Assembly (NCBI GenBank): GCA_023231475.1
Contig: JALJEE010001644.1
Coordinates: forward strand, 1-64,000
DNA from: Seison nebaliae
Lineage: Eukaryota
Direction of reading: 5' to 3'
DNA length: 64,000 bases
This document shows positions 11,957 to 62,226 of this stretch, one piece after another. The stretch's first letter is position 1. Every line of letters starts with the position of its first letter. The translations under genes and the position numbers were made by a program. The notes under the pieces are model-generated. The model made no database searches. It was not told the DNA's origin and saw only the letters and a program-made list of their open reading frames with translations.

Positions 11957-12794
11957 TTAGAAAAACGAGCAGATTTTTTCTAATAGACTTTGTTTTGGCA
12001 TCACTATTTTTTGTTCGATATCTTTTTTTACTTGGATGGACGTTTTTGATGCGTCGATGGTTCGAACGAGATCTCTCGCTTCGTAGAATTCGACTAGTGG
12101 TGTAGTATTGTTGTGGTAGGTGGCCATTCGTTTCTTTAAAGTTTCTTCGTTGTCGTCTGATCGTTGAATTAATGCTTCTCCAGTCAACTATGAGGAGGAA
12201 GATGAAAATATTAATTTGAAAAGAAAATGAACATCGTCTTTTCCTTCTGATTTGGGTGGATGGAAAAATTTGTTATAAGTTCTACCACTCGGTTTATGAA
12301 TTAATCGACCACAAATCCTTTTAATGAGAAGATCGTCCTGAATTCTGAGAATTTGATGAGAATTTGATGAAATTTTATTGAGAGCAACTTGAAATGAATT
12401 ACATTATTCAGTTTATTCTTTTCGGTCAACATATTATCTAAAGCGATCGCTTGTGATTTGTTTCTAGGGAAACCATCGAGCAGGAATCCTTTCGCACATT
12501 CGTCCATATACAAATGTTTCTTAATCAATTCTACAACAATCTCATCTTTCACTAAACCGCCACTGTTCATCACATTTTTGATTTCTTTCGCTAATGATGA
12601 ATCTGTATTCAATTCTGCTCTTAACATATCACCAGTGGACAAATGACATACTCCATATCTATCGATTAAATTGGCTGCCTAATTATCGAATTTCTCATTT
12701 GGAAATTTATTGGAATAAATTTAACTTGAGTACCTTTTCCTGCACCAGGTGGTCCAATTAGGACGGCATTCAAATTATTATTCGATTTACTCAT
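11957..12794 (-). CDS. AK2: Adenylate kinase 2 (mitochondrial type), 4 exons
   Basis: P-loop [57 protein letters not shown]. Introns 12679-12725, 12345-12388 and 12188-12232 (all GTT..AG) restore the frame. Confidence 0.93.
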
Positions 12795-13042
12795 TTTTCA
12801 CAGGAAATTAGAACGTGTTGTTATAGTCTCACGTGTTTCCTTTCTTGATATATAATAATGATGTTCTGATTGATTAGGAAATAATGACGAAGTTCTTCTT
12901 TTTTGGAAGATAGAAAAATTCCATGATAATTATCTTCTTACTCTTTTCAAATTATAAGTTTCAATTAACATTTCTTCTCGAAATGAAAGTTTAATATTTA
13001 CCATTCATCCAATATTTCGTCGTCTATATATTAATCGAAATT

Positions 13043-13543
13043 ATGTCGAATTTGACGAGAACAATTCCAATTGAACAACCGTCATCAAAATCGTCAAAGA
13101 GACATTCGATATCACATAAAAATACTAAATCATCAACATCGTTGTCCACAAAAGAACGAGTAGAGAAGAATACGTTAATCAATGAGGAATGTCGATATGA
13201 GAATCGACAATATTTTCAGAAAATCCTTCAAAATCTTTTTCGACTTCTCGATAATTTACGACAATCATCTTCTCGTTATGTAATCTGGCAACAGACGAAA
13301 ACCGAGAGGAAATCGATTGAAGGAAGAAACGAGAATTTGGAAACGGCTCTCAAACAAACCATCAAAATGGAAACATATTGTGACAATTCGAAGAGAAGTC
13401 TGAGAATTTCTGGATTATTATTTAATCAGATCGATCACCAATTCGATGTGATGAAACAATCATTAACACAAATATTTAATTTGCTTCATTATCATTTTTA
13501 TTCTTCTTCTCAGAATTCTCCATCAACTTCATCCAATTCCACC
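13043..13543 (+). CDS. BORCS7-like coiled-coil region, in frame with and lacking a stop before POLR3K
   Basis: ENLETALKQTIKMETYCDNSKRSLRISGLLFNQIDHQFDVMKQSL aligns by eye, without gaps, to the recalled BORC subunit 7 core (E.L..A.......E.....S..SLR...........Q). Assignment is tentative. Confidence 0.45.
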
Positions 13544-13879
13544 ATGTCTCTTTTGTTGTTTTGTGGAATTTGTGGGAATCGTTTGTCGATTAGTGAGAAT
13601 GTGGAAGGTGTGTGTTTTATGTGCCCTTCCTGCCCATTCAAACAGCCGTTAAGTCAAAGTGTCTCACAGAGACGTTATCCTCAAATGAAAGAAGTTGATG
13701 ATGTTATTGGAGGAAGTGAAGCTTGGAAGAACGTCGATTCGACTGAAGAGAAATGTCCAAAATGTGAACATGATCGTGCATTCTTCATGCAAATGCAATT
13801 ACGCAGTGCTGATGAACCGAGCACAACATTCTATCGTTGTTGCAATTCTGAATGTTCTCATCAATGGAACGATCAATAA
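13544..13879 (+). CDS. POLR3K: RNA polymerase III subunit RPC10/C11
   Basis: MSLLLFCGICGN...CPSCPF zinc ribbon, KEVDDVIGG..AW, C-terminal TFIIS-like ribbon CPKCEHDRAFFMQMQLRSADEPSTTFYRCC..C.HQW. ATG in an ACCATG context. Confidence 0.95.
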   Translation: MSLLLFCGICGNRLSISENVEGVCFMCPSCPFKQPLSQSVSQRRYPQMKEVDDVIGGSEAWKNVDSTEEKCPKCEHDRAFFMQMQLRSADEPSTTFYRCCNSECSHQWNDQ

Positions 13880-14051
13880 TTTTCTGTAATTTATTTAATG
13901 AATTTTCATAATTTTCTCGTGTTTAATAAGAGAATGTAATTTAAATGGAAATGATGGAAATTTCGAAATCTTTATAATTTCATTTTCATTTTCTTTTCTA
14001 TTATAACAATTAGAATTCTTTCACATTCTCGAGCTCTATCCGATAGATCAA

Positions 14052-58903: not shown

Positions 58904-59065
58904 AAAATTTATAATATATAAACGTTGATCGAAAATTTATAGAGAATTAATTATAGTATAGGAGTTTATGAAAACTGGAAAAGAAAAGTAGAAAATTCTT
59001 AATGAATATCATCTCGATGAAACGAATTTTTATTAAATTATTTTGAGATTAATAAAAATTTATAA

Positions 59066-59728
59066 TTAATTTCTTCTAAGATTCTCCAATCTTGCTTCTA
59101 AATCAGCATCGGCCGTATTCATTGATGGTTTTTCAGTTGCTTTTCCTGGTACACCAACCGTCTCATTTGGTGGTTGTAATCCGGCCATCTGTTCTGACAT
59201 TTGGATACCCAATTCATCGAGAACTTTGTTAACTAATTGATCAGTTTCTTCTTCGTCATCATCGTCTCCCAATGCGTCATCGATTGCGTCGTCCATCATC
59301 TCTTCTTTCATATCCATCATTTCTGATTGTTTTTCGAATTCCATCATAATTTTTTGGATTTCAGGAAGATTCATTTGTTTATTCATTCGACCCATCGCTT
59401 GTGCAACTCCTTTCATTGCTTGTGCCATTTTATTACTCGATTTCATTGAAACGATTTTGAGAGAAATGGCTTGAATATTCGCTTTCATTAACATAAATTT
59501 CTTTATTGTTCTCCTCGATCTAGCCACATCTTTCGCTAGAACTTTCACCGCATCCATTTGTCCCGCTTTTGCCATTTTCTTTATATCAGCTATCGTTCGT
59601 TTCTCTTGTTGTTCAATTCTCATTCGTTCTCGATCCAATTCTCTTATGGATCGATTAAGCATTCGTTGATTCTCTTTCAACAACTCATCGGGAGTCTTCC
59701 GATGTCCAAAAAGATTTGATAAAGGCAT
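59066..59728 (-). CDS. CHMP2A: ESCRT-III subunit CHMP2A/Vps2, single exon
   Basis: LFGHRKTPDELLKENQRMLNRSIRELDRER, KKMAKAGQMDAVKVLAKD, MAQAMKGV, MEFEKQSEMMDMKEEM, C-terminal MIM DADLEARLENLRR. Confidence 0.95.
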   Translation of the reverse strand: MPLSNLFGHRKTPDELLKENQRMLNRSIRELDRERMRIEQQEKRTIADIKKMAKAGQMDAVKVLAKDVARSRRTIKKFMLMKANIQAISLKIVSMKSSNKMAQAMKGVAQAMGRMNKQMNLPEIQKIMMEFEKQSEMMDMKEEMMDDAIDDALGDDDDEEETDQLVNKVLDELGIQMSEQMAGLQPPNETVGVPGKATEKPSMNTADADLEARLENLRRN

Positions 59729-61328
59729 TATCAGTTGACAGAAAAATTTCAACTAAAATTGAATGGGAAAATTTGCGATTTGATGAATAATGAAATTTGT
59801 AAAAGTTTCCTTCCTTGATATGACGATTCTATAAAAGACAGAATTTATTAGTAATTATTATTTACTTATTTTCTGATGTTTATTGTGTATTTAGTTCCCA
59901 TTAAATTTTATTTTATATTCAATGAAGCTCTCACTTCATAATTATTACCTCCATAACTCCAATACTTATAGAAATTTGACTTTGAAATGTTTTTGATTAT
60001 AGAATTGATAAAATTCTTTGTCTTTTCTTTTCTCATAAAGAACACATCGGAAGAACTTGATTTGATCCGAGAATATTAGCACATTATACATATAAAGTAT
60101 TTCTATCGATAACCGATAAAATAAAATTTATTCAAGTTAGAGATTCAAACAAAAAACAAAAGTACACCTTCTTTATTATAATTCTATTATATAATCATCC
60201 AGCTAATATCAAAATATCATATTACTATGTCAGTTCTGTTTATGTTATTAAATGATAAGGCGTAAGATAAATTCAACAATAATTTTGTTACTAGAATATT
60301 GCAGAAGAATTATTAAGCACTGCTTAATAAGCAGTTTTTCCACTTGCCAAAATGTCGTAGGTTCATAAAATCAATTTTTTCTCACTCTATATCAGATGAT
60401 ATTGAGAGAAGGTATTGGGAGGGGAGGAAAATCTAATCGGTTTATCATTTAATGCCGATGAAGATAGGTATTGAAGAGTAGAAAAAATTTTAATTGAAAT
60501 TCTGTTAAGAAATTTGAAATTTTAGAACAATTTTAATTTTGTAAAAACTTCAAACTGACAATTGTAAGATAAGTTGCGCAAGAAAGTTTGAAAAAAAACT
60601 TCGCAAATTAATTTTTTAAAATTTATCTTTTCAAAAGTAATTAGTATGTTAGATCTTAAAAAATAAAAAATATTTGTTTTAAAGAAAATTTTGGATTTAT
60701 TTTTGGATTAGGAAAATAGTTAAATTAAATTTGTGTTTTCTCTTGTTTGTTCTCATCAAAATCAATAAATTTTTACTTTGAAAATAGAAAGCCGATTATT
60801 TAGAGAGAATCGCAACATATTTAATATTCAAATTAAGGAAAAGTTGAACTAATTGAAATTTAGGTGATATAGTTCATGAAAATTAATGAGAAGTAAGGCG
60901 ACTATACAAGTCTAAATAAGAATTATGTTATATTTGATGGTGGAGAAACAGATGTGGAACGAATGAATAGAATACGTCGAAGAATTAACTTTGAAAATAT
61001 TGCAAAAGAAATTTCATGTTATTCCTATTTCACTGTCTCCAATTTGTGATAAGATCGATTTGGAGCGCATCCATTTTTTTTCAATTTTATTCAAGAAAAA
61101 CTTCTATATAAAATATACAGCCACGAAACATACTCCCACACACTCACACGTATACACATAAACATATAGAAAAATATATTCATATTTCAAAAAAATTTTT
61201 GATTTATCTCTTTCTCTTTTTTCTTTCTCCTTTTAAAAAAATCTACTTTTTCACAAACTTATCTATTTATTCACACCGTCAATTTCGATTATCCATTCCA
61301 ATAAAACATAAAATCAATTTGTCACAAT

Positions 61329-62226
61329 ATGAGTAATAAGGAACAATATGCTCCATTACAATTGAGATATCAATCAATTTTAAGTAATCTCCTCAAATCG
61401 GATGATAATAAATATTGTGTTGAATGTGATGGGAAAGGTCCCAGATGGGCGTCATGGAATCTTGGCATTTTCTTGTGCATGAGATGTGCAGGAATTCACC
61501 GCAAATTGGGTGTTCACATTTCCCGAGTGAAATCGGTCAATTTAGACACGTGGAAACCACAAGAAATTGCTCAAGTTCAAGATATGGGGAATTCGAGAGC
61601 TCGCGCTGTATATGAAGCACGATTACCAGACAACTATAAGCGACCGCAGACAGATATGGCGTTAGAGCAATTTATTCGAATGAAATATGATCATAAAAAA
61701 TGGATTGCTTCTGAATGGACTGGTGGTATGGTTGAACCGTCACCTGATCTATTCATTCCACATTCTACCAATAATAAATCGTCTAAATTCAATAATATTA
61801 CAAGTAAAAAATCGATGGGATTAGGTCCGATTCGCGCACCAGATACCAAAATGAAAACAAATCAAATTTCAACTCCAACTCCACCGGCGAAAGAAGTGAA
61901 TCTTCTCGACTTAGGTGAGTTTTTTCTTTATAGTTTTTGAAATGAAATAAATTATTTTTATAGATTTCTCTGATAGTCAACCTGCGAAGAGTTTTCAGTT
62001 TCATGATAAATCAAAAGATCATCTATCGATTAGTCAACACACAAAATCATCATCTATTGGAGGAATCACCAATAACAGTTTTGATCCATTCGCTAACACA
62101 GATATGGGAACGAATAAAGTTGAATCGAATAAACAATCCAATAATCAAATGTTGGATGCATTATTTAATAGTTCGAATGACGGGACGAATCACGGATCAT
62201 CATCTCTAAACGATTTATGGAATTAA
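61329..62226 (+). CDS. SMAP1/2-type ArfGAP, 2 exons
   Basis: [50 protein letters not shown] zinc finger, [20 protein letters not shown]. Intron 61915-61963 (GTGAGT..TAG) creates the clathrin box LLDLD across the junction; a DPF motif follows. Confidence 0.88.

What the first reader, a model, noticed from the sequence alone, without database searches (positions are those of the whole stretch)
11957..62226. Near-universal GTT 5' splice sites: a rewired donor-recognition system
Seen: of 56 introns rebuilt across 16 genes, 53 begin GTT (GTTA/GTTT/GTTC/GTTG), and most lack the +4A/+5G/+6T signature. Many junctions are fixed by conserved protein motifs, e.g. GKGTQ|A in AK2, RIQ|VWF in the homeobox, LLLLG in G-alpha, DWLQ|EPY in MFSD5. 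Established: animal donors follow GTRAGT with a purine at +3 read by U1 snRNA, and +3 T is uncommon. Inference: this lineage has an altered donor code, such as a compensatory change at the U1 5' end, a changed U6 ACAGAGA box, or loss or rewiring of donor-proofing proteins (U1-C, Luc7, SNRNP27, U6 m6A by METTL16). AT richness alone would favour GTA as much as GTT, so composition does not explain it.
Basis: partly seen in the sequence, partly recalled or inferred. Interest (0 to 1): 0.9.

Follow-up and report, generated by a model that had tools for sequence, protein, structure and literature searches.

The report
Animal introns that start with GTT
In this stretch of DNA from Seison, a tiny relative of rotifers, nearly all predicted introns start with GTT instead of the GTA or GTG usual in animals, which likely means its splicing machinery has been retuned to read a different intron-start code.

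Summary
Real. Three spliced models equal proteins named Seison nebaliae. Of 54 introns rebuilt in 16 genes, 51 start GTT, 2 GTG, 1 GTA. Of 18 fixed by outside homology blind to +3, 17 are GTT. Composition helps (introns are 48% T) but does not explain it (P 2e-6 under the harshest null). Bdelloid-like relatives use mostly GTA (53 of 74 donors), and 18 of their 19 GTT donors carry +5G. In Seison the rule is mirrored: only 11 of 51 GTT donors have +5G, while all 3 non-GTT donors do. Whatever reads +3 seems to have switched from A to U. Likeliest: one U-to-A change at U1 snRNA position 6 (about 0.5); untested, since no genome or reads were available. Shifted or bulged U1 pairing gains nothing. 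Closest known: Entamoeba GUUUGU with a co-evolved U1, but those donors are strict and intron-poor; these are degenerate, in an intron-rich animal. Ten paper searches found no animal case. This scan noted GTT donors before in protists.

The parts
11957..12794 (-). Introns 12725-12679, 12388-12345, 12232-12188, all GTT
   Evidence: exon 1 ends at profile 12, exon 2 starts at 13
14052..15321 (+). VMP1-like membrane protein (name recalled; weak Pfam VTT hit). Introns 14204-14249, 14455-14495, 14847-14892, 15010-15054, all GTT
   Evidence: frame-based
15678..17752 (+). PCH2/TRIP13 AAA ATPase. Introns 15912-15964, 16060-16111, 16284-16326, 16603-16663, 16892-16938, 17234-17285, all GTT (first three frame-only)
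   Evidence: searches show exons contiguous at chain residues 224|225 across 16892-16938
17831..19033 (-). Adenosine kinase-like pfkB protein. Introns 19025-18976, 18897-18857, 18723-18668, all GTT
   Evidence: model identical to P0241, 351 of 351
22616..25299 (+). Homeobox gene. Introns 23121-23164, 23539-23579, 23688-23740, 23919-23965, all GTT
   Evidence: (profile 45|46 across 23688-23740)
25707..26697 (+). Spec3-domain gene. Introns 26023-26067 (GTT), 26287-26333 (GTT), 26346-26392 (GTA with +5G, +6T)
   Evidence: last two frame-only
26763..28361 (-). Leucine-rich-repeat protein. Eight introns (28257, 28024, 27893, 27720, 27527, 27362, 27162, 26985), all GTT
   Evidence: model identical to P0391, 406 of 406
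28654..30018 (-). MFS_5 transporter (MFSD5-like; start uncertain). Intron 29856-29815, GTT
   Evidence: profile 53|54
30400..33627 (-). Unknown 1041-aa protein. Introns 31079-31027, 30557-30509, both GTT, frame-only
36847..38452 (-). TDP-43-like protein. Introns 37645-37586 and 37111-37030, both GTT
50372..51688 (+). G-alpha(o)-type subunit. Introns 50502-50551, 51014-51062, 51182-51229, 51385-51431, 51529-51574, all GTT; all five positions shared with bdelloid-like loci
   Evidence: (margins 43-92)
52897..53709 (-). Staphylococcal-nuclease-domain protein. Introns 53573-53517, 53329-53273 (second is in frame and could be read through), both GTT
54077..54487 (-). Small unknown protein. Intron 54153-54103, GTT, frame-only
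54817..55290 (+). Small protein with weak STI1/HOP DP hit. Intron 55223-55270, GTT, frame-only with GTA rivals
57074..58903 (+). 4-aminobutyrate aminotransferase. Introns at 57099, 57271, 57480, 57610, 58158, 58374, 58532 (GTT) and 58733-58781 (GTG with -1G, +4A, +5G)
   Evidence: (margins 22-47); model identical to P0122, 483 of 483
61329..62226 (+). ArfGAP protein. Intron 61915-61963, GTG with -2A, -1G, +4A, +5G, +6T

Best explanation
Predicted introns here nearly all start GTT, likely because the part of the major spliceosome that reads the third intron base now prefers U to A, probably through a single U-to-A change at position 6 of U1 snRNA. Shown from sequence: the GTT excess; short GT-AG introns; kept bias for the rest of the U1 complement (-2A, -1G, +5G); and a mirrored dependency in which non-T donors need +5G, whereas in relatives T donors need +5G. 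Inferred: a U1 arm reading ACUAAC instead of ACUUAC would pair with GUU and mismatch GUA. New GTT donors would then be favoured, old GTA donors would convert, GTT donors would lose their need for +5G, and GTA/GTG would survive only where the other positions match well. The narrow length (41-61 nt) would limit the candidates, so one extra specified base could pick the donor.
For: 51 of 54 GTT, and only 1 GTA against 17.8 expected from intron composition: GTA is avoided, which an unchanged U1 would not cause. Where GTT and another GT lie 40-62 nt from the same acceptor, GTT is used in 18 of 19 (9.7 expected, P 4e-5; includes hand-picked introns). Bdelloid-like loci: 35 GTA, 18 GTT, 1 GTG in G-alpha and 18 GTA, 1 GTG, 1 GTT in flanking genes; 18 of 19 GTT have +5G. 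Window: 11 of 51 GTT have +5G, 3 of 3 non-GTT do (Fisher P 0.015). At G-alpha positions 40 and 233 relatives have GTA in 13 of 13 and 5 of 5, the window GTT; at 194, 285 and 317 relatives' GTT donors all have +5G and the window's lack it. Mean matches at -3..+6: 4.46 with the usual complement, 5.39 after one +3 switch, 5.52 in relatives. Precedent: Entamoeba U1 with ACAAAC for GUUUGU donors (10.1101/2022.06.08.495308, passages).
Against: No U1, U6 or splicing-protein gene was seen: no genome is held and the window has no Rfam match. The mirrored +3/+5 pattern cannot tell U1 from U6, since both face these positions, and rests on only three non-GTT donors, two of them frame-only. The gain in matches after a +3 switch is partly built in. 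Several lineages changed donors with no snRNA change (yeasts, Giardia, Trichomonas, Micromonas, Thecamonas), though at +4. Relatives' donors come from few genes and related species, so their P values are overstated. Junctions lack RNA reads.
Confidence: 0.5

Rival explanations
1. The switch is in U6: the ACAGA-box base facing +3 has changed (for example G to A), so U6 selects GUU after U1 hands over the site.
For: The U6 box faces +3 to +5 (PMC11732430, passages), so it gives the same mirrored dependency; a changed U6 box is reported for Cyanidioschyzon (PMC10581693, passage).
Against: The box was invariant in 240 fungal species and is kept in Entamoeba. Recalled: this base also sits in the catalytic core.
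Confidence: 0.17
2. U1 and U6 are unchanged and a protein (U1-C, LUC7, PRP8 or another transfer factor) has been altered or lost so that +3U is favoured.
For: Seison lacks about 35% of BUSCO Metazoa genes (PMC8351084, passages); protein loss shifted +4 preference in yeasts with no snRNA change; Entamoeba U1-C is highly diverged.
Against: METTL16 and SNRNP27K are tied to +4, which is near background here. Loss of a proofing factor would be expected to loosen +3, not to fix a new base at 94% (inference).
Confidence: 0.15
3. Nothing reads +3 any more; GTT results from T-biased mutation on the transcribed strand.
For: Intron interiors are 48% T, and T follows GT in 35 of 52 interior GTs; bdelloid-like donors are already 19 of 74 GTT.
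Against: +3 is T in 51 of 54 while +4, +6, +7 and +8 are T in 20, 29, 30 and 30; A at +3 is 1 against 17.8 expected; P 2e-6 under the harshest null.
Confidence: 0.08
4. Ordinary U1 reads these donors in a +1 shifted or bulged register (GU-U-AAGU).
For: Such registers are known for rare human sites (recalled).
Against: No donor has GTTRAG; +6G is 3 of 54; matches of +4..+7 to AAGT average 1.37 against 1.19 from composition; the shift register scores lower than the normal one.
Confidence: 0.04
5. The pattern is an artefact of choosing junctions by eye.
For: 26 of 54 junctions (tiers C, D) are my choice, and some have non-GTT frame-restoring rivals. One tier-A junction (18723) beats a GC donor by 4.4, of which 4 is my own GC penalty.
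Against: 17 of 18 outside-homology junctions are GTT; 12 of them have margins of 21-92 besides the GTG one; three full models equal database proteins letter for letter.
Confidence: 0.03

Closest known systems
Entamoeba GUUUGU(U) donors with co-evolved U1 arm ACAAAC (bioRxiv 10.1101/2022.06.08.495308; passages read)
   Same: U at +3 in nearly all introns; GT-AG major-type introns; a predicted U1 change facing +3.
   Different: Entamoeba donors are strict (88-89.5% GUUUGU) in an intron-poor protist and also have +4U; here only +3 is fixed, +4..+6 are loose (GTTTGT in a few), and the host is an intron-rich animal (54 introns in 16 genes). The U1 change is not shown here.
Saccharomycotina +4A to +4U switch linked to loss of METTL16 and SNRNP27K (PMC10581693; passages read)
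   Same: A lineage-wide change of one donor base.
   Different: That change is at +4 with unchanged U1 and U6; here +3 is fixed and +4 is near background.
[quoted passage not shown]
   Same: Traces of both biases remain (-2A, -1G, +5G).
   Different: Only 6 of 54 donors are AG|GT and 2 of 54 GTRAG; 28 of 54 have neither -1G nor +5G.
Bdelloid rotifer donors
   Same: Same short AT-rich introns, shared intron positions, weak donors.
   Different: 53 of 74 GTA; GTT almost always with +5G (18 of 19).
Shifted or bulged U1 registers at atypical human donors (Roca and Krainer; recalled, not read)
   Same: Donors that begin GUU.
   Different: The displaced AAGU consensus is absent here.

Membership tests
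Major (U2-type) spliceosomal introns | GT...AG termini | tested here: met
   54 of 54; my aligner allowed only GT/GC and AG ends, so other termini were not sought
Major (U2-type) spliceosomal introns | Purine at +3 (GURAG consensus) | tested here: not met
   3 of 54
Major (U2-type) spliceosomal introns | Residual U1/U5-type exon bias and +5G | tested here: met
   -2A P 1e-5, -1G P 0.006, +5G P 4e-7
Major (U2-type) spliceosomal introns | Branch-point consensus before the acceptor | tested here: inconclusive
   YTRAY-type patterns no more frequent than in shuffles
Minor (U12-type) introns | RTATCCTT donor (PMC3488318 passage) | tested here: not met
   The only GTAT donor continues GT, not CC
Entamoeba-type transformed donor with co-evolved U1 | U at +3 in almost all introns | tested here: met
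   51 of 54
Entamoeba-type transformed donor with co-evolved U1 | Strict GUUUGU hexamer | tested here: not met
   +4T 20, +5G 14, +5G+6T 8 of 54
Entamoeba-type transformed donor with co-evolved U1 | U1 snRNA arm changed to complement the donor | not testable with these tools
   No genome held; no snRNA in the window
Entamoeba-type transformed donor with co-evolved U1 | Intron-poor genome | tested here: not met
   54 introns in 16 spliced genes within 50 kb
METTL16/SNRNP27K-loss donor switch | +4A replaced by +4U | tested here: not met
   +4 A 22, T 20 against 17.8 and 26.0 expected
METTL16/SNRNP27K-loss donor switch | Genes absent from the genome | not testable with these tools
   No genome held; protein searches spent on junction tests
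Shifted-register U1 donors | Consensus displaced by one base (GTTRAG, +6G) | tested here: not met
   0 of 54 GTTRAG, +6G 3 of 54

The most novel reading that the evidence does not exclude
Seison is an animal whose major spliceosome has been recoded: a changed U1 snRNA reads GUU, and the introns of an intron-rich genome, including ancient shared positions, were converted from GTA to GTT one by one, with a mirrored compensation rule. It would be the first such recoding in a metazoan that my searches could find.
Probability: 0.5. Interest if true: 0.87.

Novelty: new variant of a known kind. Interest (0 to 1): 0.74.

Why it matters
The purine at +3 and the U1 arm that reads it are treated as near-fixed in animals. 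A lineage that swapped the base across many introns gives a natural test of two open questions: which component (U1, U6 or a protein) sets donor preference, and how a recognition code shared by thousands of sites can change without a lethal intermediate. Bdelloids, with about a quarter of donors GTT but propped by +5G, look like a possible starting state, and shared intron positions let the conversion be traced across Syndermata. Practically, gene finders and read aligners trained on GTR donors will score this genome's introns poorly.

Tried and rejected
Genome-wide test: no genome held. RNA reads: none obtained. snRNA genes in the window: none by Rfam at gathering score or E up to 1. Transcript-derived copies of the three matching proteins: the collection lists only NCBI sources. 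LRR homologues outside Seison: none found, so its 8 junctions rest on the database annotation. Splicing-factor terms in the two supplements of PMC8351084: 0 hits; the spreadsheet is held cut. Shifted and bulged U1 registers: no gain. Branch-point consensus: no enrichment. Exon-versus-intron seesaw: rho -0.14, P 0.30. A candidate GTT intron at 29951-29892 was rejected because the Pfam MFS_5 match runs through it. A single GTG or GTC intron in the Spec3 gene was set aside for two 47-nt introns around a 12-nt exon (frame only). No gene model could be built at 19940-21100. The G-alpha tree did not resolve the window's place within Syndermata; the species name rests on protein identity. One intron and four start coordinates were mistyped and corrected. 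Dropped from the relatives' count: L038-L080 (43 of 80 loci, not aligned), 9 intron-free loci, unreliable N-terminal calls (profile 10-16), one odd call in L006, one donor with an N, duplicates, and L034 (not rotifer-like).
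Full report
Setting. The window is 31% GC and gene-dense. A G-alpha exon hit bdelloid rotifers best (85-90%). Aminotransferase and LRR exons hit proteins that the tool names Seison nebaliae, and my spliced models of three genes equal P0122, P0391 and P0241 letter for letter (483 of 483, 406 of 406, 351 of 351). The lineage is therefore Seison, in Syndermata (rotifers and acanthocephalans). 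No genome was held and no reads were obtained, so everything rests on this window, on homologues and on relatives' loci.

Checking the junctions without favouring GTT. I wrote a profile-to-DNA spliced aligner that requires GT or GC and AG ends and ignores +3. With profiles from outside homologues (83 G-alpha, 77 aminotransferase with the Seison protein left out, 85 adenosine kinase), it placed 5 of 5 G-alpha, 6 of 7 aminotransferase and 2 of 2 kinase donors at GTT; the seventh is GTG at 58733. Forbidding the chosen donor cost 21-92 score units, except at 18723 (4.4, nearly all my GC penalty). Four more junctions are fixed by contiguous numbering: TRIP13 chain 224|225, and Pfam ADK 12|13, Homeodomain 45|46, MFS_5 53|54; all GTT. 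So 17 of 18 outside-fixed donors are GTT. Ten more follow the named Seison proteins (all GTT). The other 26 I chose among frame-restoring candidates (24 GTT, 1 GTA, 1 GTG); some have non-GTT rivals, mostly 62-85 nt long. Total: 51 of 54 in 16 genes, median length 47.5 nt. Part 1 of a published transcript-mapping table for the species shows gaps of 42-92 nt, median 49 (36 gaps counted by eye), which agrees with the lengths I preferred.

More than chance. T follows GT at 0.42 in the window, T is 0.48 of intron interiors, and T follows GT in 35 of 52 interior GTs. Against these, 51 of 54 has P 2e-16, 2e-13, 2e-6, and 17 of 18 has 4e-6, 4e-5, 0.008. A at +3 is 1 against 17.8 expected. Where a GTT and another GT lie within intron length of one acceptor, GTT is used in 18 of 19 (9.7 expected; partly circular, as hand-picked introns are included).

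Anatomy of the donor. Beyond GTT the site is loose: +4 A 22/T 20/C 10/G 2; +6 T 29 (26 expected); 2 of 54 have +4A+5G+6T; 28 of 54 have neither -1G nor +5G. The old code is still visible: +5G 14 (2.8 expected, P 4e-7), -2A 35 (19.1; P 1e-5), -1G 17 (9.1; P 0.006), -3C 15 (9.7; P 0.05). No branch-point consensus stands out.

Relatives. One metagenome scan gave 80 G-alpha loci; I aligned the best 37, of which 28 had introns. Of 15 intron-bearing loci compared, 14 are 94-99% identical to named bdelloid proteins; L034 is not and was dropped. After removing duplicates and unreliable calls, 54 donors at 10 positions are 35 GTA, 18 GTT, 1 GTG, and all 18 GTT have +5G. Twenty donors from flanking genes, found by cross-species conservation blind to +3, are 18 GTA, 1 GTG and 1 GTT; that GTT lacks +5G. 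All five G-alpha introns of the window are shared with these loci. At positions 40 and 233 relatives have GTA (13 of 13, 5 of 5) and the window GTT. At 194, 285 and 317 relatives already have GTT in 10 of 12, always with +5G, while the window's three lack it. These donors come from few genes and related species, so they are not independent.

The mirrored rule. In relatives +3T behaves as a mismatch that needs +5G (18 of 19). In the window GTT needs no +5G (11 of 51), while the three exceptions all have it and carry 3, 4 and 5 of the six other consensus bases against a mean of 2.35 (Fisher P 0.015). That is what a switch of the +3 reader from A to U predicts; three exceptions is a thin base. 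Counting matches to the U1 complement at -3..+6 gives 4.46 for the window, 5.52 for relatives, and 5.39 for the window after a single +3 switch (P 0.65 against relatives), a gain that is partly built in. Shifted and bulged registers add nothing: no GTTRAG, +6G in 3, and 1.37 matches to AAGT at +4..+7 against 1.19 expected.

Mechanism. Shown: the GTT excess, the avoidance of GTA, the residual consensus, the contrast with relatives. Inferred: a changed +3 reader. I put a U-to-A change at U1 position 6 first (0.5), because it explains both the gain of U and the loss of A with one base and has a precedent in Entamoeba. A changed U6 box (0.17) gives the same pattern, but the box was invariant in 240 fungi and is kept in Entamoeba. 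A protein change (0.15) is possible in a genome that lacks about 35% of BUSCO genes, but the best-known factors act on +4, which is unremarkable here. Mutation bias alone (0.08), shifted pairing (0.04) and artefact (0.03) are unlikely. The window holds no snRNA gene, so none of this was tested directly.

What is known. Ten full-text searches found no report of GTT-dominant donors in Seison, rotifers or any animal; the library lacks most subscription papers and figures are not searchable, so a logo in a pan-eukaryote survey could have been missed. Seen as matched passages only: 10.1101/2022.06.08.495308 (its supplements were not opened and may list animal U1 variants), PMC11732430, PMC10581693, PMC8351084 (supplement search 36 and part 1 of 400 of file 2, 43), PMC10125929, PMC11347168, PMC3033335, PMC3488318. 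Other titles were seen as listings only. Recalled, not checked: GTT donors are a sizeable minority in some AT-rich nematodes; shifted U1 registers in human sites. Earlier notes of this scan report GTT donors in Bonamia and variant U1 genes in unnamed protists, none in this genome; I did not test them and they are not support.

Verdict. It works like the Entamoeba transformation but fails its strict-hexamer and intron-poor features, so it is a new variant of a known kind: a degenerate GTT code in an intron-rich animal. Interest 0.74; 0.87 if a recoded U1 is found, which one search of the genome can settle.

Noticed in passing
window, acceptors of the 54 introns: AAG acceptors are 20 of 54 (TAG 21, CAG 13), against 6 of 54 in bdelloid-like G-alpha introns: the 3' site may also be loosened.
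   Followed up: partly
window 26334-26345 (+): Predicted 12-nt micro-exon in the Spec3-domain gene, followed by the only GTA donor; inferred from frame only.
   Followed up: partly
window, intron positions -38 to -9: GAA(A/T) occurs in 22 of 54 introns against 14.6 in dinucleotide shuffles, while the usual branch-point patterns are not enriched; the pattern was picked after seeing 4-mer counts.
   Followed up: partly
PMC8351084 Additional file 2, part 1 of 400: Counted by eye: 32 of 36 distinct short gaps (42-92 nt, median 49) in transcript-to-genome mappings are written as deletions, not introns. Recalled: GMAP does so when its standard splice-site scores are low. A hint that donors are atypical species-wide.
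   Followed up: no
window 12995-13876 (+): An RNA polymerase small subunit (Pfam RPB9/TFIIS zinc ribbons, 13547-13876) is preceded in frame by about 180 open codons.
   Followed up: no
window 52897-53709 (-): Stand-alone staphylococcal-nuclease-domain protein with a hydrophobic N-terminus; origin not examined.
   Followed up: no
window 2361-8369 (-), 39406-43662 (+), 59069-59752 (-): Long uninterrupted frames in an intron-rich region: 2003 aa without a Pfam hit, a 1419-aa HR1-kinase (PKN-like) and a Snf7 protein.
   Followed up: no
window, 54 introns: Lengths divisible by three are 12 of 54, below the 18 expected; not tested.
   Followed up: no
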